43,754 nucleotides of DNA from a virus. The notes beneath the pieces were generated by a model. The model saw only the letters and a list, made by a program, of their open reading frames with translations, was not told the origin of the DNA and searched no databases. Below, piece after piece: positions 3,115-33,312 of the stretch; position 1 is the first letter of the stretch; every line of letters begins with the position of its first letter. Both the position numbers and the translations under genes were made by a program. The stretch lies in the IMG/VR virus record IMGVR_UViG_3300029478_000005; one strand, 5' to 3'.

Positions 3115-4230
3115 ATGGCAAGAGCAAAAGCGCGGGCTGATGGGCTGATTGAACGAACAAAAACCTATGACGGCAAGCGGGTACACTTTTACGGAAAGAC
3201 CGCGAAAGAGGTCGCCGCGAAGATTGACGAATACGAACGCCAGCGGGAAGCGGTGAAAGAGAACGGCCCGCTGTTTGAGGATGTGGCCGGTGAATGGTGG
3301 GAGACCCATTCAAAAAATATCAAGACCGGCGCGGAAAGAGCCTACAAGGGCAGCTACAAGGCCGCGCTGGAAGAGTTCAGCGGGTACAGAATGAAAGAGA
3401 TAACCCCTGCTGCGGTGTCGCTGTGGGGCGAGAAATTCAAGGCCGCAGGCTATGCAGGGAAGACGGCAAGCAACGCCCGGAGCGTGTTGTCTTGTGTATT
3501 CAAGTTTTGGTGCGTCCGGGATGGCGAAACATACAACCCGGTGACAGTTACCGATCTGCCGCGCGGCATGAAAAAAGCAGAGCGCGAACCGCCGACAGAG
3601 GAACAGCTACAAATCGTCAAGGCACACCCGGAGGGGTTCGGGCTGTGTGCCTGGCTGTTCATGTACACCGGCTGCCGACTGGGTGAGGTGCTGGCGCTGC
3701 AATGGCGGGATGTGGATTTTGAAAAAAACAGAATCAGCATATCCAAAGAAGTGGCGTGGATAAACAATCAGCCGGTTGTGCAAGCGCCAAAAACCGCAAA
3801 CGGAGTGCGCGCTGTGCCGCTGCTGTCGCCGCTGCGGGGCGTGCTAGAGCCGTTACGCGGGGCAGATAGTGAGTATATACTCGGAGGGGAAAGGCCGCTG
3901 ACAGGCTGCGCATACAAGCGCAGATGGGCATATTACTGCAAGGATGTGGGCATGGCGCACTATGTGCTGCACACACGAAGAAATAAGCACAGAGACAAAG
4001 AGTACACAACGACGATTAAGGACTGGATTGCCGACGTAACGGCGCACCAGTTCCGGCACGAGTACGCCTCGATGCTGTATGAAGCAGGAATAGGCGAGCT
4101 GGAAGCACAACGCCTTATGGGGCACGCTGACATTACGACGACACGGCGGGTATATACACACATACGGGAACGCCAGCTAGATACAGCAGGAGAGGCACTA
4201 GAAAAATTTATAAGCGATAAAACGATATAA
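3115..4230 (+). CDS. int: Tyrosine recombinase / phage integrase (371 aa)
   Basis: C-terminal catalytic signature TAHQFRHEYAS...LMGHADITTTRRVYTH (R..H-x-x-R..H..Y). AGGAGGG RBS. Adjacent attP. Confidence 0.92.
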   Translation: MARAKARADGLIERTKTYDGKRVHFYGKTAKEVAAKIDEYERQREAVKENGPLFEDVAGEWWETHSKNIKTGAERAYKGSYKAALEEFSGYRMKEITPAAVSLWGEKFKAAGYAGKTASNARSVLSCVFKFWCVRDGETYNPVTVTDLPRGMKKAEREPPTEEQLQIVKAHPEGFGLCAWLFMYTGCRLGEVLALQWRDVDFEKNRISISKEVAWINNQPVVQAPKTANGVRAVPLLSPLRGVLEPLRGADSEYILGGERPLTGCAYKRRWAYYCKDVGMAHYVLHTRRNKHRDKEYTTTIKDWIADVTAHQFRHEYASMLYEAGIGELEAQRLMGHADITTTRRVYTHIRERQLDTAGEALEKFISDKTI

Positions 4231-5420: not shown

Positions 5421-5718
5421 TGTTGCAATCTCCTCTTTATATTTTGGAATATGGGACGGGGCCTGTTTTTGTGGTGATAAACCGAACGGGAACTGTACCG
5501 AACACGTCCGGCGGCGGGTACAATCTGTTTTGCGGGGAGGTGTACCGGCTCCCGCTGGACTTATGCCAGCGCCCCGGCGGGCTGGCTGCCATTGTTGGCG
5601 ATGGGTGCGCGTTGTAAATTTGTGCCGTGCTTGCTGTTGTGTTGGTACCCAAGCCCGCCCACTCCTTGCAGGGTGGCCGGGCTTGCACCGGCGGCGCGTT
5701 ATGCGTCTGCCTTGCGGG

Positions 5719-6162
5719 TCAATCAAGGCAAGTTTCGCGCTTGATTTTGTACTGCGCTTTGATCTTGTCATAGGCGCGGAGCGTGACCATGTAGGTGCCC
5801 TGTTCTGCGTCGTAGGTAATGCCGCGCCCGTGGAGCGGGGGCAGTCCGTCACGCAGGGGGCGCAGAAAGTAGTGCTTGCCATAGTAGGCAAGATCGGCGG
5901 CGTAGTCGCAGCCCGTGGGGGCCTGCTGCATTTCGTAGCAGTAGGAATACTCGCCGGGGGCGGTGGCCTGCACGGCGGGGGTCTTGGCAGCCTCCAATGC
6001 GTCATAATCGGGGGCGTAGCCGTAAACCTCGCCGGTGCTGGGGTCATAGCGGGAAACGGAAAAATCCGGGATGAAAAGCGCCGTGTTTGTGCCGATCTGC
6101 TGGGAGTAGCCACCGGGAACCGGGGCAAAGGTGCCGGGAATTTTGCGTTCTGTTGCTGCCAT
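5719..6162 (-). CDS. Hypothetical protein (147 aa)
   Basis: AGGAGG RBS. No recognisable motif. Confidence 0.6.
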   Translation of the reverse strand: MAATERKIPGTFAPVPGGYSQQIGTNTALFIPDFSVSRYDPSTGEVYGYAPDYDALEAAKTPAVQATAPGEYSYCYEMQQAPTGCDYAADLAYYGKHYFLRPLRDGLPPLHGRGITYDAEQGTYMVTLRAYDKIKAQYKIKRETCLD

Positions 6163-6980: not shown

Positions 6981-7181
6981 ATGTCTACGGACGCGAAAAG
7001 AGCAGCCAATGCGCGGTATTTGGCCAAGTTCAAGGCAATTTCTGTACGGCTTAATCAGGAGGACGCGGAAACTATCCAGCGGGCAGCGGATGCAGCGGGG
7101 GAGAGCCTGAGCGGCTATATAGCCAGCGCGGCAAAATCACGCGCAAAACTTGAAAATCACGATAAACCGAAAAGCCCTTGA
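6981..7181 (+). CDS. Ribbon-helix-helix (CopG/Arc-like) DNA-binding protein (66 aa)
   Basis: AISVRLNQEDAETIQRAADAAGESLSGYI is a typical RHH strand-helix-helix pattern. AAGGAGG RBS. Confidence 0.65.
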   Translation: MSTDAKRAANARYLAKFKAISVRLNQEDAETIQRAADAAGESLSGYIASAAKSRAKLENHDKPKSP

Positions 7182-7215
7182 CAAAATCGCACTTAAGTAG
7201 TAAAATGTGTATAAT
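7178..7215 (+). promoter_or_regulatory. Late-operon promoter
   Basis: TTGACA (7178-7183), 17 nt, TAAAAT (7201-7206). A second -10-like TATAAT at 7210-7215. Overlaps the RHH stop codon. Confidence 0.65.
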
Positions 7216-7257
7216 GAGCGAACCACGCGAGGAAGCGAGCTTCCGCGGCGGGGCTCA
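7215..7257 (+). promoter_or_regulatory. 5' leader hairpin of the late transcript
   Basis: TGAGC/GCTCA base, CC-CGCG/CG-CG-GG middle, GGAAG-CGAG-CTTCC tip. Embedded in the 11-bp inverted repeat TGTATAATGAG (7208-7218) / CTCATTATACA (7258-7268). Confidence 0.5.
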
Positions 7258-7302
7258 CTCATTATACAGTTTTAACGTATCAACGCGAAAATTAGGTTTC
7301 GG

Positions 7303-7333
7303 GCGTCCAGCTTTACCGCTGGGCGCTTTTTTT
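7303..7333 (+). terminator. Promoter-proximal intrinsic terminator ahead of terS
   Basis: 9-bp stem GCGTCCAGC/GCTGGGCGC (one G-U), loop TTTACC, T7 run. Ends 25 nt before ATG 7359. Confidence 0.75.
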
Positions 7334-7358
7334 GTTGCTATAAAAGGAGGGCGGCAAC

Positions 7359-7925
7359 ATGGCAGAAAAGAAGGCGGCGCAGGCCGTCCAGCTTGGAGAA
7401 GTGACCCGCAAGGCAATTGCAGGAGTCGAAAAGGCCAGGCAAGCAGCAGAACGCGGTGAACTCGTAGATAAGCGCGGCAACAGGATGAACCCGGCCAGCA
7501 TTGCGAATCTGCGGCCAGGTACAGCAATAAAGGATATGGAACCGGAACGTAGGCGGGAAATTCAGCAGGCAGGGCAGAAGGCAAGCGTTGAAGCTCAGAA
7601 GAAGCGCCGAACGATTAAGGAAATATATAGAGACCTGCTACAGCAGCCGGACAGTGTGGAAGGGCTGGAAGATGAGGAACTAGCCCAAACTGTACAAGAG
7701 ATGGCGCGAGAGAGGGGAAGGCCTGTCACGTTGTACGAATCAATCGCTGTCGCGATGGCGGCCAAAGCGAAGGCCGGAGACGTCAAAGCGGCGGTGTTTG
7801 TGCGAGATTCTGCGGGCGATAAACCGGCTGATCAGATGGAAATTACAGCCGAAGCAATGACCGACGCAGATAGAGAATTGATGCAGAACATCCAGAAGCG
7901 ACTGCAAAAGAACGATAATACGTGA
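7359..7925 (+). CDS. terS: Terminase small subunit (188 aa)
   Basis: AAGGAGGG RBS. The segment AKAGDVKAAVFVRDSAGDKPADQ matches the conserved TerS motif seen in Firmicutes phages (from memory). Sits upstream of terL. Confidence 0.7.
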   Translation: MAEKKAAQAVQLGEVTRKAIAGVEKARQAAERGELVDKRGNRMNPASIANLRPGTAIKDMEPERRREIQQAGQKASVEAQKKRRTIKEIYRDLLQQPDSVEGLEDEELAQTVQEMARERGRPVTLYESIAVAMAAKAKAGDVKAAVFVRDSAGDKPADQMEITAEAMTDADRELMQNIQKRLQKNDNT

Positions 7926-8386: not shown

Positions 8387-8414
8387 GCGTTCTGCTACGG
8401 CAGGGCGCTTTTTT
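8387..8414 (+). terminator. Intrinsic terminator inside the terS-terL gap
   Basis: 9-bp stem GCGTTCTGC/GCAGGGCGC (two G-U), loop TACG, T6. The core CTGCTACGGCAGGG is shared with the terminator at 12868. Confidence 0.7.
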
Positions 8415-8610: not shown

Positions 8611-8668
8611 GCCCTTGTAGCTCAATGGCAAGAGCCTTGGTGTGCCGGTTCAAGTCCGGCTGAGGGCA
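8611..8668 (+). ncRNA. tRNA-like element lacking the anticodon arm (58 nt)
   Basis: Acceptor GCCCTTG/TGAGGGC; U8; D arm GCTC-AATGGCAA-GAGC (A14, G18G19, A21); T arm GCCGG-TTCAAGT-CCGGC; discriminator A. Only 8 nt (CTTGGTGT, 8636-8643) sit where the anticodon arm and variable loop belong. No encoded CCA. Confidence 0.6.
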
Positions 8669-8996
8669 AATGCTGGGTCATTCCCACCGGTGAAAGCCCG
8701 GCGCAGGCAAAATGCGATAAATCAACCTGAACGCTGTAAGCAAAGCGGCAAGCCGATCAGGAGCGCGGCGCGATGGCAGATCGCAACGGGACTTCGAGAG
8801 CCTGAAAAAGTCTGCCCCACATCTGCTTGCGCGGACGCTGTTACTGACACCGTTGCGCGTTGTGGCCCCCTTTAATCAAAGCAGAAACCGCGACCAGCGG
8901 ACGGGATATAAATAACGCTGGATTACGTTGCAGGTGTGCAGCTGCAACGGGTGAGACCGGCATAGCAGAGACCGGTAGGGCGGGTATGGGGAATTT

Positions 8997-10508
8997 TTGA
9001 GGAACTGGGGTGATGTGTTGACGCTGGAAGAAATGCGGGAACTTGAGCGCGAGGCGTGCAGGAAAGACCCGGTATATTTTTGCGAAACATATTGCCACAT
9101 TGAGGACAAGGACGCAGACGAGCTGATACAACCGTTTACGCTGTGGGACGGGCAGAAAAAAGCACTGGTCGTGTTTGCCGAGAACCGGCTTGTTTGCGTG
9201 CTGAAAGCACGTCAGTTGGGCTTTACATGGCTGGCGCTGGCAGAGGTGGCGCGGCTTGTGGCGCTGAACACAGGCCGTACTGCGATTGGCTTGAGCCGGT
9301 CAGAGGACGAGGCCAAAGAGCTTGTGCGCCGCCTTGCGGTGATACTGCGGTACATGCCGGGGCTTATCCGAGAGGTGGACACGCCGGGCGGCAGCGTTGC
9401 AGGCTGGACAGGGCCGGTATTCTACAAAAGCACAATGCAGGTGGTTGTGATGTGGCCGGACGGCCCAGAGAGCGTGTTTAAGGCGTTTCCGTCAAGCCCT
9501 GCGGCAGGCCGTTCGTTTACCGCTGACTTGATCGTAATTGACGAATGGGCGTTCCAGCAGTACGCAGAGGAAATCTGGCAGGCTGCATACCCGGTTATCA
9601 ACAGACCGTTCGGCGGGCGGGTTATCGGGCTGTCAACCATCAAACTTGGCACGCTGTTTGAGGAAATCTACACAAACCCCGGCAACGGTTTTGCAAAGCT
9701 GTTTTTGCCGTGGAGCACAGACCCACGCCGCAGTCAGAAGTGGTACGCACAGACTGTTGCTGCGCTGGGCGAGGATAAAACGATGCAGGAGTACCCTGCA
9801 ACCGAAGAAGAAGCGCTCTCTGCCCCCGGAGGGCGCTTTTTTAGTGAGCTTGACAAAGATACCCACTTGGTCGATGCACCGCCTACAGGGCCGCTAAGGC
9901 GCTATGTGACGATTGACTATGGTCTTGATATGCTGGCTGCGCTTTGGATTGCTGTTGACACGCAGGGCCATGCAACGGTGTACCGGGTGGACGGCGGGCC
10001 GAACAAGACGATAGGTGAAGCGGCAGATTTGATTTTGCGCGATTCTGCCGAGGAAGAGATAGACATGTATCTTGCACCGCCTGACCTGTGGAACCGAAGT
10101 CAGGAGAGCGGCAAGAGCCGCGCACAGCTGTTCAGCGAGGCGGGATTGCCGTTGGTGCAGAGTTCCCGAGACTTCCCGGCAGGATGCGCGGCCATGAAAC
10201 AATGGCTGCGCAAGGACGAAAAGAGCGGGAAAGGGTATCTGACGTTCTACAAGCCGGGCGAGTTATGGACGTGCCTGACGAAGATACAGAAGGATGATAA
10301 AAACCCTGATGTGTATGCGAAGAACCCTCACGGCCTGACGCATTACCCGGACGCATTACGCTATTTTTGCGTTTGGTGGACAAGCCCGGCGAAAAAACCT
10401 GTGAATATACGAAAAAGGCCGTGGACGGCGGACATGTACGAGGATTACAAGAACGCCAGCCAGAAAGACCGCAAAATGCTGATTGAGAAATGGGGGAACC
10501 CTGCATGA
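8997..10508 (+). CDS. terL: Terminase large subunit (about 500 aa; exact start uncertain: TTG 8997, GTG 9015 or ATG 9033)
   Basis: Walker-A-like LKARQLGFTW, Walker B DLIVIDEWAF, C-terminal nuclease-type region, correct size and position. Confidence 0.88.
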   Translation: MRNWGDVLTLEEMRELEREACRKDPVYFCETYCHIEDKDADELIQPFTLWDGQKKALVVFAENRLVCVLKARQLGFTWLALAEVARLVALNTGRTAIGLSRSEDEAKELVRRLAVILRYMPGLIREVDTPGGSVAGWTGPVFYKSTMQVVVMWPDGPESVFKAFPSSPAAGRSFTADLIVIDEWAFQQYAEEIWQAAYPVINRPFGGRVIGLSTIKLGTLFEEIYTNPGNGFAKLFLPWSTDPRRSQKWYAQTVAALGEDKTMQEYPATEEEALSAPGGRFFSELDKDTHLVDAPPTGPLRRYVTIDYGLDMLAALWIAVDTQGHATVYRVDGGPNKTIGEAADLILRDSAEEEIDMYLAPPDLWNRSQESGKSRAQLFSEAGLPLVQSSRDFPAGCAAMKQWLRKDEKSGKGYLTFYKPGELWTCLTKIQKDDKNPDVYAKNPHGLTHYPDALRYFCVWWTSPAKKPVNIRKRPWTADMYEDYKNASQKDRKMLIEKWGNPA

Positions 10509-10683: not shown

Positions 10684-10740
10684 TTGCCCTCATCCGGCCC
10701 TGCGGGGCCACCTTCCCCCTCGGGGGAAGGCAGGGGAATT
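10684..10740 (+). repeat. Structured intergenic repeat, copy 1 (two hairpins)
   Basis: GCCCTCATCC + GGCCC-TGCG-GGGCC + A + CCTTCCCC-CTCG-GGGGAAGG. Its 33 nt TTTGCCCTCATCCGGCCCTGCGGGGCCACCTTC (starting 10683, one base left of this feature) are identical to copy 2. Confidence 0.8.
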
Positions 10741-10752
10741 ACGATAGAAGAA

Positions 10753-10783
10753 GCGTCTACCCGAAAGGGTAGGCGCTTTTTTT
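10753..10783 (+). terminator. Intrinsic terminator after the terL unit
   Basis: 10-bp stem GCGTCTACCC/GGGTAGGCGC (one G-U), GAAA loop, T7. Confidence 0.8.
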
Positions 10784-11666: not shown

Positions 11667-12668
11667 ATGGCAGTTATTTTTAGCAAGGCAAGCGGCCTTG
11701 CCAATGATTTTTGGAATGAGTGGGCTGACCTGCTCACCATGAAAATGAAGGACACCGACAACGAAAAGAACAACGATGACGAGCTTGTCAATGCGCTGTT
11801 CAATGTCAAGAAGTCCAAGCGTTTCGGCGAGAAGATCGCAGGCATGTCTACCTTCTCCAACTTTGATCTGGTCGATGAGGGCGCGTCCAGCCCGCTGGAT
11901 GATTTCGGCGAGGTGGAGCCCAAACTGATCCAGCATTCGGAGTTCAAGAAGGCGTTCCGCATCACCAAGACGATGATCGAGGACAACCAGTTCGATATGG
12001 GCGCTGCCCGCTCTGCAGCCTATGTGCGTAGCTTTAAGCGCAGTCGTGCTGTGCTTGCCTCCAACGCACTGACCAGCGCTGCCGCGACCTTTACTTACGG
12101 CACAAAGACCGGGCTGGATTCCACAACTGCAGACGGCAAGGCCCTGTTTGCCAAAGACCATACCGGCAAGACCGGCGTTTCCGCGCAGAGCAATGTGTTT
12201 ACCAATGCGCTGGGCACCGATGACACGATGCTGAACAAGCTGGCGAATGTCGGCTTCAACTTCATGAATGCCTCCGGCAACCACATGGGCTATGTGTTCG
12301 ACACCATCATCCTGCCTGCCAACCGCCCAGAGATGATCGTGCTGGCAAAGAAGATCGCCAACAGTGACCAGCAGGTCGGCAGCAACTTCAACGATGTGAA
12401 CGTCAACAAGGGCATGTGGAAGCTGATCGTTGACCATCATTGGCAGGCTGCTGAAGAGACAAACCCCTATATCATCATGAGTTCTCAGGCCAACAAAGAC
12501 CTGCTGGGCAACGTGTTTTATGACCGTACCGCGATGGAGGTCTTCCAGAATGTGGACACGATGACGCAGGATCTGATCACTTCCTGCCGTGGCCGTTTCA
12601 GCGTCGGTTTCGGAGATTGGCGGCATGTGATCCTTGGCGGCGCTGCCGCCGGCACGACACTGACCTGA
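11667..12668 (+). CDS. Major capsid protein (333 aa, HK97-fold type inferred)
   Basis: AAGGAG RBS, size, position after the scaffold, and a strong terminator downstream typical of a highly expressed gene. Confidence 0.7.
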   Translation: MAVIFSKASGLANDFWNEWADLLTMKMKDTDNEKNNDDELVNALFNVKKSKRFGEKIAGMSTFSNFDLVDEGASSPLDDFGEVEPKLIQHSEFKKAFRITKTMIEDNQFDMGAARSAAYVRSFKRSRAVLASNALTSAAATFTYGTKTGLDSTTADGKALFAKDHTGKTGVSAQSNVFTNALGTDDTMLNKLANVGFNFMNASGNHMGYVFDTIILPANRPEMIVLAKKIANSDQQVGSNFNDVNVNKGMWKLIVDHHWQAAEETNPYIIMSSQANKDLLGNVFYDRTAMEVFQNVDTMTQDLITSCRGRFSVGFGDWRHVILGGAAAGTTLT

Positions 12669-12867: not shown

Positions 12868-12897
12868 GCGGCTCTGCTACGGCAGGGCCGCTTTTTT
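12868..12897 (+). terminator. Intrinsic terminator after the capsid unit
   Basis: 10-bp stem GCGGCTCTGC/GCAGGGCCGC (one G-U), loop TACG, T6. Confidence 0.8.
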
Positions 12898-12936: not shown

Positions 12937-14820
12937 ATGAAGAAAGACGATAAGCAGACAAAAGACCTTGAAAAATGGCAGGGCAAGCTATCCAACGCGA
13001 AAGCTGCATACAGTGACACCCTGGAAAAGATGCGCAAGCGCGAGGCCATGTACTACGGCAGCCACGAGATACAGGGTGCCAAAAAAGACGCCACGAATGT
13101 GCGCAATATTATCTATGAGCTGATTGAAAGTCAGGTGGATTCCAGCTACCCGATGCCGAAGGTCACAGCCATCCATGCGGAAGACCAGGACTTGGCGCGA
13201 AAGGCCGAAAACATGCTGCGCAATCAGGCACGGCGGATGCGGTTTATTGAACTGAATGACAGAAGCGAACGCACAGTGCCGGTGCAGGGCGCGGACTTTT
13301 TCCATGTGGAGTGGAACCCGGTTGCAGGGTATCACTGCACGCTGGGCGATGTTGAAGTAGAGATGCGTCACCCACGGCAGGTCATTCCGCAGCCGGGTGT
13401 GTACCGCATTGAGGATATGGATTATATCTTTGTGCAGGTCTCAAAGAGCAAGGATTCGCTGGAAGCGCGGTACGGCATTACCATTGAGACCGACACAGAG
13501 GACGCGCCGGACGCACGCGGGGGCGATGACAGCACCCACACAGGCGTTGTGACGCAGAACATTGTCTATTACAAGCACGACAAGGGCACAGTAGGTATGT
13601 TTAGCTGGGTAGGGTGTCAGGTGCTTGAAGATTTCCCCGATTATTATGCGCGCACGGCAGAGGTCTGCACGAAATGCGGACGACGGCGCGTGGGGGATGT
13701 CTGTGTTTGCGGTAGCAAGAAGTTCAAAGAACAGCCGGTGCAGACACTTACGCTGACACAGGATGTACTTCTTAGCAGCGGCGAGGTGCTGCCTGCACAG
13801 GTGCCGGGCGAGGATGTGCCCATTGTGAACCCGGACGGCAGTGTGCAGCGTGACAACGAGAGCGGCGAGGTCATTATGATGCCGGGCGAGATGCAGGCCA
13901 ACGAGATACCGGCCTACAAACCGCACGGGTTCCCGATTGTGGAGCGGATAAACATTGCGGCATCGGACAAGTTTTTGGGCGTGTCGGATGTAGATATTAT
14001 CGCTGACCAGCAGCAGGCTATCAACAAATACGGCACGAAGATTCAGGAAAAGCTGCTGAAAGGCGGCAGTTGGGTAGTGCTGCCGGAGGGCGTAAATGCA
14101 GAGCTGAACGATAACGAGCTGAAAATTTTGCGCGTAGACAACCCGAGCCAGAAAGCCATGATCGATGTTATCAATGTGCAGCCCAATGTGCAGAACGACC
14201 AGAACATGCTGGAAATGAATTACACTTGGGCGAAATCCACTTTGGGCATTACGGACGCATTCCAGGGCAAGTACGATTCTTCCGCTACATCGGGCAGTGC
14301 GAAGCAGTTCAGCGCGAACCAGAGCGCAGGCCGTTTGCAGAGCAAGCGCGAGATGAAGAACAACGCCTATGCGAAGCTGTACCGCATGATGTTTGAGTTT
14401 TTGCTGGCGTATGCCGATGAGCCGTACCCGATGACCGAGACCGACACGGACGGCGAACAGCAGTTCGGGCATTTTGACAGGATGGAGTTTTTGAAGCGGG
14501 ACGCAGCCGGGGAATTGTACTGGAACGATGAATTTATCATTGAAGTAGACCCGGCATCGAACCTTGCAAGCAACCGCGAGCGGCTGTGGGATATGGTCGA
14601 TGTGAAGTATCAGGCGGGCGGTTTTGGCAACATTAACGAGCCTGCAAGTCAGTACCGGCTGTGGACTTTCCTGAAAGAGACCGGATTCCCGTATGCAGCC
14701 ACAATGCAGAAATCCATCAAAGAGGAGATGGACAAACAGGAAGCTATGCAGCAGGGGGTGATTGCAAATGACATGGCAGGAAATCAAGTTGGCAACCTTG
14801 CAGAAAATGTTCAGCTCTGA
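12937..14820 (+). CDS. Portal protein (627 aa)
   Basis: Size; motif NIIYELIESQVDSSYPMPKV and the acidic C-terminus are recalled from portal families. AGGAGTG RBS. Confidence 0.7.
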   Translation: MKKDDKQTKDLEKWQGKLSNAKAAYSDTLEKMRKREAMYYGSHEIQGAKKDATNVRNIIYELIESQVDSSYPMPKVTAIHAEDQDLARKAENMLRNQARRMRFIELNDRSERTVPVQGADFFHVEWNPVAGYHCTLGDVEVEMRHPRQVIPQPGVYRIEDMDYIFVQVSKSKDSLEARYGITIETDTEDAPDARGGDDSTHTGVVTQNIVYYKHDKGTVGMFSWVGCQVLEDFPDYYARTAEVCTKCGRRRVGDVCVCGSKKFKEQPVQTLTLTQDVLLSSGEVLPAQVPGEDVPIVNPDGSVQRDNESGEVIMMPGEMQANEIPAYKPHGFPIVERINIAASDKFLGVSDVDIIADQQQAINKYGTKIQEKLLKGGSWVVLPEGVNAELNDNELKILRVDNPSQKAMIDVINVQPNVQNDQNMLEMNYTWAKSTLGITDAFQGKYDSSATSGSAKQFSANQSAGRLQSKREMKNNAYAKLYRMMFEFLLAYADEPYPMTETDTDGEQQFGHFDRMEFLKRDAAGELYWNDEFIIEVDPASNLASNRERLWDMVDVKYQAGGFGNINEPASQYRLWTFLKETGFPYAATMQKSIKEEMDKQEAMQQGVIANDMAGNQVGNLAENVQL

Positions 14821-22614: not shown

Positions 22615-22797
22615 ATGGGTGATTTTATCAAAAACATTGCAGCGCTTTTCAAGGTAAAAACCATTGTGACGCTGGTTGTCGTTGCAGTGTTTGCGGCATT
22701 GGCGCTGCGGGAGAAATTACAGCCTGACACGGTCATGACCATTGTGACGATGGTCGTGGCCTTTTATTTTGGCACGCAGAGTGAGCGGAAGGGGTGA
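22615..22797 (+). CDS. Holin, two TM helices (60 aa)
   Basis: IVTLVVVAVFAALAL and VMTIVTMVVAFYF, with a charged C-terminus. Confidence 0.6.
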   Translation: MGDFIKNIAALFKVKTIVTLVVVAVFAALALREKLQPDTVMTIVTMVVAFYFGTQSERKG

Positions 22798-23716: not shown

Positions 23717-23836
23717 TTGCCCTCATCCGGCCCTGCGGGGCCACCTTCAGTCTACGCGCTAAGAGCCGCCTGCGGCGGTTGCGCTACGACACGCGCCTGC
23801 GGGCGCAGCCCCACAGGGGAAGGCTTTAGGGAATTT
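23717..23836 (+). repeat. Structured intergenic repeat, copy 2, with a 67-nt nested insertion
   Basis: Same left part as copy 1. Insertion 23749-23815 sits between CCTTC and GGGGAAGG and itself carries GCGCC-TGCG-GGCGC and CCGCC-TGC-GGCGG hairpins. Confidence 0.75.
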
Positions 23837-30428: not shown

Positions 30429-30475
30429 GCCCCTCATCCGCCGCTGCGGCGGCACCTTCCCCCGAGGGGGAAGGC
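30429..30475 (+). repeat. Structured intergenic repeat, copy 3
   Basis: CCCTCATCC + GCCGC-TGCG-GCGGC + A + CCTTCCCC-CGAG-GGGGAAGG. Hairpin 1 differs from copies 1 and 2 by two compensatory base-pair swaps. Confidence 0.8.
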
Positions 30476-30484
30476 AAAAGTATA

Positions 30485-30522
30485 GCGGGCAGTCACTTTT
30501 TGAGCGGCTGCCCGCTTTTTTT
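30485..30522 (+). terminator. Intrinsic terminator
   Basis: 8-bp stem GCGGGCAG/CTGCCCGC, 15-nt loop, T7. Confidence 0.7.
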
Positions 30523-31830: not shown

Positions 31831-31870
31831 CAGCGCAAGCCCGCACGGCAAGCGCTGTGCGGGCTTTTTT
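31831..31870 (+). terminator. Intrinsic terminator
   Basis: Stem AGCCCGCAC/GTGCGGGCT extended by CAGCGC/GCGCTG, followed by T6. Confidence 0.7.
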
Positions 31871-32865: not shown

Positions 32866-33312
32866 TCAGGGGAGAATATCAAGTTCCCAGCCGGAGGGAA
32901 GCTCTAAGAGAAACAGGCCGGTGCGTTCCTGGGCGCGTACCCAGAAATCGGAACGGTTCAGTTCTTTTGCTGTATCGCGGCGTGATTTACCCTCAAAGTA
33001 AATGGCGATCAGGACAGATTGCTGGTCGGAGTTTAGGGGTTTCATAGCTTCGTTTCGCTTGGAATAGGCCGTGTTCATCTCGGCGCGGGCACGGCAGTAC
33101 CGGGCATAGGCTTTGTCGTACCGCTCTGCCAGGCGGGCCACCGGGTCAGAGCGGGTGTTGCCTTTGGGCATACCATCGGCAGGGTGAGCCGACATGGCGG
33201 CGTTGGATTCATAGAATTTATCGCGGGCCTCGATGAAGGCTTTCTGATAGACGGCGTATTTTTCCATCCATTTTTGACGCTGGGTGTTGCCGCAGGGTAC
33301 ATTATTTTCCAT
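32866..33312 (-). CDS. Sigma-70 region-4-like late-gene regulator (ArpU/RinA-like position), 148 aa
   Basis: LNSDQQSVLIAIYFEGKSRRDTAKELNRSDFWV. Last gene of the early operon. Confidence 0.5.
   Translation of the reverse strand: MENNVPCGNTQRQKWMEKYAVYQKAFIEARDKFYESNAAMSAHPADGMPKGNTRSDPVARLAERYDKAYARYCRARAEMNTAYSKRNEAMKPLNSDQQSVLIAIYFEGKSRRDTAKELNRSDFWVRAQERTGLFLLELPSGWELDILP

What the first reader, a model, noticed from the sequence alone, without database searches (positions are those of the whole stretch)
7178..7333. Late promoter -> 5' hairpin -> terminator, plus at least five further terminators inside the late gene series: predicted processive antitermination
A near-consensus promoter (TTGACA-17-TAAAAT) fires into a ~43-nt imperfect hairpin (7215-7257). 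A strong terminator (7303-7333) then ends 25 nt before the terS ATG.

Canonical terminators also interrupt the same-strand late genes at 8387, 10753, 12868, 30485 and 31831.

This resembles lambda PR'-qut-tR' (Q protein, 6S RNA) or HK022 put RNA, but no Q-like protein is recognisable. Candidate factors are the RHH protein (6981-7181), the sigma-like protein (32866-33312), or the leader RNA acting in cis.

The 11-bp inverted repeat TGTATAATGAG/CTCATTATACA overlaps the -10 region, so a DNA operator is an alternative reading.
Basis: partly seen in the sequence, partly recalled or inferred. Interest (0 to 1): 0.62.

Follow-up and report, generated by a model that had tools for sequence, protein, structure and literature searches.

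The report
Terminator-gated late-gene leader of gut phage
A temperate gut-bacterial phage puts a strong, always-on-looking promoter, a conserved folded RNA leader and an efficient stop signal directly in front of its packaging and virion genes, so those genes can probably be read only when a phage factor makes RNA polymerase ignore stop signals, a lambda-Q-like logic not yet shown for phages of this kind.

Summary

**What is there**
- The promoter TTGACA-17-TAAAAT lies at 7178-7206.
- A 61-nt hairpin follows at 7208-7268.
- A strong terminator at 7301-7333 ends 25 nt before the terS start.
- All five further terminators exist, and there are two more. The late strand has 10 strong sites, against 0.3 expected by chance.
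- No promoter fits behind four of the terminators.

**Conservation**
- The unit is kept in all 28 relatives chosen by terS, and in about 50 metagenome contigs.
- The inner hairpin and the top of the terminator covary. The arms never vary.

**New points**
- The 5' arm holds a second TATAAT, 3 nt after the real -10. This tandem hexamer recurs in two distant relative groups.
- Nine spacer bases after the -35 are invariant.
- The last early gene encodes a sigma-region-4, Ltr/DUF1492-like protein. It co-occurs with the leader.

**Reading**
Together this looks like a Q/AlpA-type antitermination unit, but no Q homologue is present. The RHH protein is an unlikely factor. The DNA-operator and riboswitch-type readings are disfavoured.

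This scan had already noted the same leader family in other genomes (for example e1-2907730).

The parts
6981..7181 (+). Ribbon-helix-helix gene (66 aa). Its stop codon TGA lies inside the -35 TTGACA. It has its own promoter and CATG-rich operators upstream.
   Evidence: Pfam TacA1/RHH_1. Its beta-strand residues vary among relatives, while its tail ENHDKPKNT is kept because it overlaps promoter-upstream DNA.
7133..7191 (+). Three same-strand direct repeats AAAATCRCR at 7133, 7153 and 7183, spaced 20 and 30 bp. This is a candidate binding array for the late regulator.
   Evidence: 3 of the window's 7 matches fall within 59 bp. Copies 2 and 3 are conserved in most relatives.
7178..7206 (+). Sigma-A-type late promoter TTGACA-17-TAAAAT. 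The spacer bases 7184-7192 (AAATCGCAC) are invariant, and the next 8 bases vary freely.
7210..7215 (+). Second, perfect -10-like hexamer TATAAT, 3 nt after the first (about -3 to +3 of the predicted start at 7213). It is a candidate sigma-dependent pause element or an alternative -10.
   Evidence: Read. It is invariant in all relatives. The same 9-bp offset is seen in L150 (TATAAT-TGG-TACAGT) and L158 (TAAACT-TGG-TATAGT).
7208..7268 (+). 61-nt leader hairpin. The 11-bp outer stem never varies. The inner stems covary.
7269..7300 (+). Linker with a GUUUU run right after the hairpin. It is dispensable in one relative (L237).
7301..7333 (+). Intrinsic terminator with a 10-bp stem and a U7 run, ending 25 nt before terS.
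   Evidence: It is conserved, with compensatory changes at the stem top.
7359..7925 (+). terS-like first late gene (188 aa), with a GGAGG Shine-Dalgarno sequence at 7346-7350.
   Evidence: PHROG 2412 only. Assigned by its position before terL. Homologues are 51-97% identical.
8387..8414 (+). Internal terminator in the terS-terL non-coding gap.
   Evidence: Kept in close relatives.
10753..10783 (+). Internal terminator after terL. The start of the next gene is about 40 nt away.
12868..12897 (+). Internal terminator after the major capsid gene. The portal ATG is 40 nt away.
22731..22765 (+).
30485..30522 (+). Internal terminator. It may bound a separate late cassette.
31839..31870 (+). Internal terminator. 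The next ATG is 20 nt away.
32866..33312 (-). Last gene of the early operon (148 aa): a long helical hairpin, a DGMPKG loop and a sigma-region-4 HTH. It is the candidate late regulator or antiterminator.
   Evidence: Pfam Sigma70_r4, weak. AF2 pLDDT 88. Foldseek: ECF sigma region 4 in the PDB; DUF1492 and Sigma70_r4 phage proteins at TM 0.7-0.78. The recognition helix is invariant in 20 homologues. Co-occurs with the leader.

Best explanation
The stretch 7133-7333 is the control unit of the phage's late operon, and it works as a terminator gate.

**Proposed steps**
1. Host sigma-A RNA polymerase starts at a near-consensus promoter, at about 7213.
2. It makes a structured leader of about 120 nt.
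3. Left alone, it stops at the strong terminator 25 nt before terS. The product is a short RNA, like lambda 6S RNA.
4. Late genes are read only when polymerase has been made terminator-resistant at this promoter.
5. It then also passes the further strong terminators that have no promoters behind them.

**Most likely route**
The route resembles Q or AlpA. A DNA-bound factor would sit on the invariant AAAATCGCAC block in the spacer, and possibly on its phased upstream repeat. It would load onto polymerase held by sigma at the second TATAAT at the start site. The best candidate factor is the Ltr/DUF1492-like sigma-region-4 protein encoded by the last early gene (32866-33312).

**The hairpin**
The hairpin is a selected RNA structure of the leader. 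Its exact role is open: 5' stabiliser, first weak stop for read-through from the RHH gene, or part of the loading signal.

**Shown and inferred**
- Shown: the sequence elements, their conservation, the covariation, the absence of internal promoters, and the co-occurrence with the protein.
- Inferred: the start site, termination, pausing, factor binding and processivity.
For: **Promoter**
- It scores 11/12 with 17-bp spacing.
- The hexamers and 9 spacer bases are invariant, while 8 spacer bases vary. This holds in sets chosen independently of them.

**Second hexamer**
- A second TATAAT lies at a 9-bp offset. The same offset recurs in distant relatives with otherwise different sequence.
- AlpA's pause element lies at -1 to +5. 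Q and AlpA binding elements lie within the promoter (PMC9371919; PMC6606751).

**Terminators**
- The leader terminator is universal in the family and in L150 and L158.
- The late strand has 10 strong sites against 0.32 expected.
- Their positions are kept in relatives.
- Only 20-40 nt separate four terminators from the next start codon.
- No + strand promoter match lies behind them.

**No attenuator**
The leader pairs with the terminator 5' arm at -11.9 kcal/mol, against -12.0 +/- 2.2 for shuffled leaders.

**Hairpin**
Covariation is seen at 8 pairs, with 0 of 500 shuffles reaching the observed values.

**Candidate protein**
- It has a sigma-region-4 fold. 21Q also contains a sigma-R4-like HTH.
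- Its recognition helix is invariant.
- It is present in 5 of 5 complete relatives that have the leader. It is absent from 4 of 4 distant relatives without it. A diverged homologue, with a different helix, is present in L158, which has a diverged leader.
Against: - No transcript data were available. The start site, termination and read-through are unobserved.
- No homologue of Q-lambda, Q21, Q82, AlpA, N or a NusG paralogue was found.
- The protein's closest relatives (the Ltr superfamily) are described as activators, not antiterminators (PMC3753634).
- The second hexamer sits 2-4 nt further upstream than known pause elements. It could instead be an alternative -10.
- The co-occurrence is confounded by kinship.
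- The terminator is also needed simply to end the RHH transcript.
- Terminators after capsid genes are common dosage devices.
- If transcription starts at 7213, only 6 of the 11 outer base pairs can form in this RNA. The invariance of the full 3' arm is therefore not explained.
Confidence: 0.5

Rival explanations
1. Ordinary Ltr-type activation with leaky terminators. The sigma-region-4 protein binds the AAAATCRC repeats and boosts initiation at 7178. Polymerase is not modified. The terminators are partial and only set the relative amounts of terS, terL, capsid and downstream proteins.
For: - The protein's fold matches the DUF1492 and Sigma70_r4 Ltr families.
- Ltr proteins bind direct repeats upstream of terS promoters and are required for terS expression (PMC3753634).
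- Phased direct repeats are present.
- A terminator after the capsid gene is a common layout.
Against: - The promoter is already near consensus, so it should not need an activator.
- One repeat lies inside the spacer. That is a Q/AlpA-like position, not an activator position.
- At least four strong terminators (dG -15 to -21, U6-7) in series lie before the portal gene. Without modification they would leave very little transcript.
- The gate sits before the first late gene, where dosage tuning makes little sense.
Confidence: 0.23
2. A cis-acting antiterminator RNA, as in HK022 put or the conAn2 RNA. The hairpin itself binds the transcribing polymerase and makes it terminator-resistant, with no protein or only a processivity helper.
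For: - The hairpin lies directly after the start site and is conserved with covariation.
- No recognisable antiterminator protein was found.
- conAn shows that RNA-based systems exist in Gram-positive mobile elements (PMC8191782).
Against: - There is one stem-loop, not the two of put.
- Relative L150 keeps the promoter, tandem hexamer and terminator without any hairpin. In L158 the homologous hairpin carries a U-run and looks like a terminator.
- A constitutive promoter with a constitutive RNA antiterminator would leave late genes ungated in lysogens.
- No Rfam match was found.
Confidence: 0.1
3. A small-RNA gene that is also the RHH terminator. The unit's main product is the stable RNA of about 120 nt, with a job of its own (regulatory or anti-defence). 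The terminator chiefly ends the RHH and sRNA transcripts, and late genes depend on low basal read-through.
For: - A consensus promoter plus a strong terminator is the signature of an sRNA gene.
- The whole leader is more conserved than the flanking genes.
- Lambda and Stx phages make 6S/StxS-type RNAs from the equivalent unit (my own knowledge).
Against: - The 33-nt linker is missing in L237, and the inner hairpin sequence varies freely. The only invariant single-stranded candidates for base-pairing are short.
- It does not explain how terS and the virion genes are expressed.
- It is compatible with antitermination rather than opposed to it.
Confidence: 0.1
4. A DNA-level element. The two 11-bp arms would be operator half-sites or a cruciform, bound by a repressor (RHH, CI or another) that shuts the late promoter.
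For: - The arms never vary and show no compensatory change. The three variants seen are uncompensated.
- The arms abut the -10.
Against: - The half-sites are 50 bp apart centre to centre.
- The sequence between them covaries as a hairpin.
- The RHH DNA-reading residues differ between relatives while the arms do not.
- The arm sequence occurs nowhere else in the genome.
- The invariance of the 5' arm is explained by its TG-TATAAT-GAG sigma-binding character. The same 11-mer arms recur in an unrelated IS family.
Confidence: 0.07

Closest known systems
Lambdoid Q units (Q-lambda, Q21, Q82 with PR', QBE, sigma-dependent pause element, tR', 6S RNA) and AlpA/PalpB of Pseudomonas aeruginosa
   Same: - A constitutive-type sigma-70/A promoter.
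- A conserved block inside the promoter spacer, where the QBE or ABE lies.
- A -10-like hexamer at the start site.
- An intrinsic terminator about 100 nt downstream, directly before the late genes.
- Further terminators in the operon.
- 21Q and AlpA use a sigma-R4-like HTH, and the candidate protein here also has one.
   Different: - No sequence or fold match to any Q or AlpA.
- The regulator gene is not next to the promoter.
- The -10-like hexamer lies about 2-4 nt further upstream than in AlpA (-1 to +5) or lambda (+1 to +6).
- A conserved leader hairpin is present, which Q systems do not need.
- The host is a Gram-positive gut anaerobe.
Ltr superfamily of late regulators of Gram-positive phages (RinA, ArpU, LtrA Sigma70_r4, LtrB DUF1492, LtrC) with the terS promoter region
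   Same: - A small protein with a C-terminal sigma-R4-like DNA-binding domain.
- It is encoded at the end of the early operon.
- Direct repeats lie at the terS promoter.
- A terminator lies in the region.
- Full-length fold match to DUF1492 and Sigma70_r4 phage proteins (TM 0.7-0.78).
   Different: - It does not reach any Pfam or NCBI-type family threshold.
- The gene is about 25 kb from terS.
- The promoter here is near consensus.
- The terminator lies after, not before, the promoter.
- Published work treats Ltr proteins as activators.
HK022 put RNAs; the conAn bipartite system; LoaP with its leader hairpin; EAR RNA
   Same: A structured RNA right after the promoter of a long operon that contains terminators, in a mobile element.
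   Different: - A single hairpin rather than the two stems of put.
- Far smaller than conAn2.
- No NusG paralogue or ConAn1-like protein was seen.
- The hairpin is missing in a relative that keeps the rest of the unit.
Hairpin with a -10 hexamer in its 5' arm, near the left end of a DDE_5 insertion sequence of Lachnospiraceae and Selenomonadaceae (seen here, L067-L085)
   Same: Identical 11-nt arms TGTATAATGAG/CTCATTATACA, a loop of about 40 nt, and a position ahead of the element's main gene.
   Different: The inner sequence and flanks are unrelated, and the genetic context is different. This is probably convergence on a strong sigma-binding sequence paired with its complement.

Membership tests
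Q/AlpA-type promoter-loaded antitermination unit | A factor-binding DNA element embedded in the late promoter (between -35 and -10) | tested here: inconclusive
   AAATCGCAC (7184-7192) is invariant while the rest of the spacer varies. It is one of three phased AAAATCRCR repeats. Binding was not tested.
Q/AlpA-type promoter-loaded antitermination unit | A -10-like sigma-dependent pause element in the initially transcribed region | tested here: inconclusive
   A perfect TATAAT lies at 7210-7215, about -3 to +3 of the predicted start. It is conserved, also in L150 and L158. Known elements lie at -1 to +5 (AlpA) or +1 to +6 (lambda, my own knowledge). The start site and pause were not observed.
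Q/AlpA-type promoter-loaded antitermination unit | An intrinsic terminator between the promoter and the late genes | tested here: met
   7301-7333, dG -16.7 to -19, U7 run, universal in relatives.
Q/AlpA-type promoter-loaded antitermination unit | A protein of the Q-lambda, Q21, Q82 or AlpA families | tested here: not met
   No Pfam hit, and only a weak PHROG hit (phrog_79, E 0.003). No PDB sequence or Foldseek match to Q or AlpA.
Q/AlpA-type promoter-loaded antitermination unit | Factor-dependent, processive read-through of terminators | not testable with these tools
No experiment was possible.
HK022 put RNA | Two adjacent stem-loops (about 70 nt) just after the promoter, acting in cis without a protein | tested here: not met
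   One hairpin only. No Rfam match. The hairpin is absent in L150.
Ltr superfamily late regulators | A C-terminal sigma-R4-like DNA-binding domain in a protein of about 100-150 aa, encoded late in the early operon | tested here: met
   AF2 model. ECF sigma region 4 at TMt about 0.8. DUF1492 and Sigma70_r4 phage proteins at TM 0.7-0.78. It is the last gene of the minus-strand early operon.
Ltr superfamily late regulators | Match to a family model (RinA, ArpU, DUF1492, Sigma70_r4) above threshold | tested here: not met
   Only Sigma70_r4 and r4_2, at 19-21 bits, below the cut-offs of 24-26.
Ltr superfamily late regulators | Binds direct repeats upstream of the terS promoter and is required for terS expression | not testable with these tools
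   Repeats are present. Binding and requirement are untested.
Terminator/antiterminator attenuator (riboswitch-like) | A conserved alternative pairing that competes with the terminator stem | tested here: not met
   The best leader pairing with the terminator 5' arm is -11.9 kcal/mol, against -12.0 +/- 2.2 for shuffled leaders. The hairpin lies 33 nt from the terminator.
Intrinsic (factor-independent) terminator | A GC-rich hairpin immediately followed by a U-run | tested here: met
   All listed sites, enriched about 30-fold over shuffles.

The most novel reading that the evidence does not exclude
The small sigma-region-4 'late activators' of Gram-positive phages (the Ltr, DUF1492 and Sigma70_r4-like proteins), or at least this branch of them, are not activators. 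They would be Q/AlpA-like antiterminators. They would load onto sigma-A polymerase paused at a tandem -10 hexamer of a constitutive late promoter, and then carry it through a terminator gate and a terminator-studded late operon.
Probability: 0.3. Interest if true: 0.8.

Novelty: new variant of a known kind. Interest (0 to 1): 0.6.

Why it matters
How temperate phages of Gram-positive gut bacteria switch on packaging, virion and lysis genes is known only as "an Ltr-type activator is needed".

A conserved unit with four parts would move the lambda Q logic into a very large, uncultured phage group:
- a consensus promoter;
- a tandem -10 hexamer;
- a terminator;
- a terminator-studded operon with no internal promoters.

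It would also give a concrete, cheap test. The unit is 200 bp and the candidate protein is 148 aa, so both fit in a reporter or an in vitro transcription assay.

It bears on prophage induction and on phage-mediated gene transfer in the gut. It also adds an uncatalogued conserved leader RNA to the phage RNA repertoire.

Tried and rejected
- **Rfam.** Gathering and E-value scans give no family for the leader. The best hit is trpB at 27.5 bits, against a cut-off of 59.
- **Phage GenBank collection.** No DNA match.
- **Riboswitch-like attenuator.** Rejected: no competing pairing.
- **Leader peptide.** The ATG at 7215 opens a frame, but 1-nt indels in relatives (L043, L037, L040) break it.
- **Minus-strand promoter using the 3' arm as its -10.** The only -35-like hexamers lie 11 nt away and are not conserved (read).
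- **Promoter between the terminator and terS.** TGCTATAAA at 7336-7344 would give a leader without a Shine-Dalgarno sequence, and it is not conserved.
- **RHH as reader of the invariant elements.** Rejected on sequence variation.
- **Q, N or NusG-type factors.** None found by Pfam or PHROG in the ORFs that were scanned.
- **More distant relatives through terS.** Only the same family came back.
- **More distant relatives through terL.** Two further groups share the core layout. The others are heterogeneous.
- **Arms pattern in bacterial genomes.** It mostly hit an unrelated IS family, judged to be convergence.

Full report
**Context**

The window is a complete, circularly assembled IMG/VR phage genome of 43.7 kb. 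It is temperate.
- An integrase lies at 3115-4230 and a CI-like HTH gene at 1514-1912.
- A minus-strand early and replication operon carries SSB, DnaB and RusA. It ends with a 148-aa protein at 32866-33312.
- The plus-strand late series runs as follows: RHH gene 6981-7181, terS-like 7359-7925, a 1-kb non-coding gap, terL 8997-10508, a scaffold-like gene, the major capsid gene 11667-12668, portal 12937-14820, an SU10-type adaptor, and so on.
- Rfam finds a tRNA-like element and a D12-methyl RNA in the terS-terL gap. It finds a twister-sister ribozyme on the minus strand. It finds nothing for the leader.

**The observation**

The promoter TTGACA-17-TAAAAT (7178-7206) scores 11/12.

It is a 61-nt hairpin at 7208-7268 with dG -29.7 kcal/mol, and its outer stem is the repeat.

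The terminator at 7301-7333 has a 10-bp stem and a U7 run. It ends 25 nt before the terS ATG.

It adds 22731 and an intragenic site at 9813. With dG <= -15, the late strand has 10 sites against 0.32 +/- 0.5 in dinucleotide shuffles.

Only 20-40 nt separate the terminators at 7333, 10783, 12897 and 31870 from the next start codon. The consensus scan finds no plus-strand promoter behind them. The genes for capsid, portal and everything downstream must therefore be reached by reading through strong terminators.

**Conservation**

Thirty-one IMG/VR contigs encode a terS that is 51-97% identical. All 28 with enough upstream DNA keep four things: the exact 11-nt arms, the promoter with the block TTGACAAAATCGCAC, an 8-nt variable stretch before TAAAAT, and the terminator.

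A promoter-pattern scan of metagenomes added about 25 new leader variants. Only three single, uncompensated changes in the arms were seen.

On 56 aligned leaders, the outer stem never varies. The inner stems and the terminator top show compensatory changes at 8 pairs. None of 500 shuffles, and no slid register, reaches the observed values.

One relative (L237) lacks the 33-nt linker. One-nucleotide indels rule out a leader peptide.

Internal terminators keep their positions in close relatives: in the gap, after terL and after the capsid gene.

**New anatomy**

- *A second hexamer.* The 5' arm reads TG-TATAAT-GAG. This is a second, perfect -10-like hexamer, 3 nt after TAAAAT. It lies at about -3 to +3 of the predicted start.
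- *The hexamer recurs in distant relatives.* Two distant groups of relatives (terL 64-66% identical) have different sequences but the same layout. The RHH gene ends at the promoter. A sigma-A-type promoter follows. A second hexamer sits at the same 9-bp offset (TATAAT-TGG-TACAGT in L150, TAAACT-TGG-TATAGT in L158). Then come one or two terminators, then the late genes.
- *The hairpin is not universal.* L150 has no leader hairpin. In L158 the homologous hairpin carries a U-run. The conserved core is therefore the promoter, the tandem hexamer and the terminator. The long hairpin is specific to this family.
- *An invariant spacer block.* The nine spacer bases after the -35 are invariant. They are the third of three same-strand repeats AAAATCRCR, spaced 20 and 30 bp apart.
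- *No attenuator.* The leader has no better-than-chance complementarity to the terminator's 5' arm.

**Candidate factors**

*RHH protein.* It falls into several types whose beta-strand (DNA-reading) residues differ, for example SVRLN, MIRPT, TVRMQ and ELRPL. The leader stays the same. Its conserved tail only reflects overlap with promoter-upstream DNA.

*The 148-aa protein.*
- It models confidently (pLDDT 88) as a long helical hairpin, a loop with an invariant DGMP(K/H)G motif, and a sigma-region-4 domain.
- In the PDB, only ECF sigma region 4 matches. No Q or AlpA match appears.
- Among viral models, its whole length matches DUF1492, Sigma70_r4 and "transcriptional activator" proteins of gut phages at TM 0.7-0.78. 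These correspond to the LtrA and LtrB families, which are required for terS expression (PMC3753634).
- Its recognition helix is invariant across homologues down to 50% identity.
- It is present in 5 of 5 complete relatives with the leader. It is absent from 4 of 4 distant relatives without it. L158, which has a diverged leader, carries a diverged homologue with a different recognition helix.

**Comparison with known systems**

Q proteins and AlpA need three things: a binding element inside the promoter, a -10-like pause element at the start of the transcript (AlpA: -1 to +5), and a downstream terminator. 21Q and AlpA read DNA with a sigma-R4-like HTH (PMC6606751, PMC9371919).

The cis anatomy here fits that scheme closely, but no defining protein family is present. 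I therefore say it "works like" a Q unit. I do not file it as a member.

The put, conAn and LoaP systems resemble it only in having a leader RNA.

**Weighing**

Read-through of 7333 is close to unavoidable, because there is no room for a promoter before terS. Whether the read-through is factor-made and processive is an inference from two things: the strength and number of the terminators, and the promoter anatomy.

I put 0.5 on promoter-loaded processive antitermination. The alternatives:

| Reading | Confidence |
|---|---|
| Plain Ltr activation with leaky terminators | 0.23 |
| RNA-only mechanism (put-like) | 0.10 |
| sRNA-centred reading | 0.10 |
| DNA operator | 0.07 |

*Unexplained.* If transcription starts at 7213, only 6 of the 11 outer pairs can form. 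Yet the whole 3' arm is invariant. The full hairpin would form in read-through RNA from the RHH promoter. This suggests an insulating role for such transcripts.

The same 11-nt arms, with an unrelated interior, occur near the left end of a DDE_5 insertion sequence in several Firmicutes. This points to convergence on a strong sigma-binding sequence paired with its complement.

**Earlier notes of this scan**

The scan has noted the same leader family in other genomes: e1-2907730 (followed up), e1-3689174, e1-3470377, e1-3470690 and e1-3133960. It has noted similar promoter-terminator gates in many other phages. My tests agree with those notes. They add the tandem-hexamer conservation in distant relatives, the covariation counts, the exclusion of RHH, and the fold assignment of the candidate protein.

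Noticed in passing
L067:3337-3401 (also L068-L085): The same 11-nt hairpin arms TGTATAATGAG/CTCATTATACA, with an unrelated interior, lie about 50 nt inside the left end of a multi-copy DDE_5 transposase insertion sequence. It occurs in Lachnospiraceae, Acetatifactor, Oscillospiraceae and Selenomonadaceae genomes, often at contig ends. The 3' part of that hairpin can alternatively pair with a downstream segment that is followed by a U-run.
   Followed up: partly
window 10687-10732, 23720-23765, 30431-30476: A three-copy intergenic repeat CCCTCATCC followed by a 5-bp hairpin. Compensatory changes (GGCCC/GGGCC versus GCCGC/GCGGC) are seen between copies. Two copies continue into a second hairpin and sit just before terminators of the late strand.
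   Followed up: no
window 9813-9842: A terminator-like hairpin with a U6 run lies inside the terL reading frame (codons ALSAPGGRFF). It is kept at the same place (+816) in most of the close relatives checked (7 of 11 loci).
   Followed up: partly
window 8926-8988 and 8611-8668: A D12-methyl RNA (72.9 bits) lies directly before terL, not before a methyltransferase gene. A 58-nt tRNA-like element without an anticodon arm lies 260 nt upstream of it. ARAGORN calls no tRNA.
   Followed up: no
window 8684-8791: A weak Rfam match to group-II-D1D4-4 (23.7 bits, E 0.01, below threshold) lies in the terS-terL non-coding gap.
   Followed up: no
window 5642-5722 (minus strand): A full-length twister-sister ribozyme match (59.9 bits) lies inside the minus-strand accessory unit that is driven by the perfect consensus promoter at 6855-6827.
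   Followed up: no
L153:1411-1515: A distant relative has TTGACT-17-TGGTAAACT. Three nt later comes a hairpin with perfect 11-bp arms (CTTTAAGATGA/TCATCTTTAAG), then a terminator, all in a convergent intergenic gap. This is a similar small promoter-hairpin-terminator unit in another place.
   Followed up: no
L158:1855-1877: In this distant relative the late-promoter spacer holds an 8-bp-period direct repeat (GACAGTGA GACAGCGA). Its homologue of the 148-aa protein has a different recognition helix (RSTVYRLHDRA).
   Followed up: partly
The host assignment is therefore unsettled.
   Followed up: no
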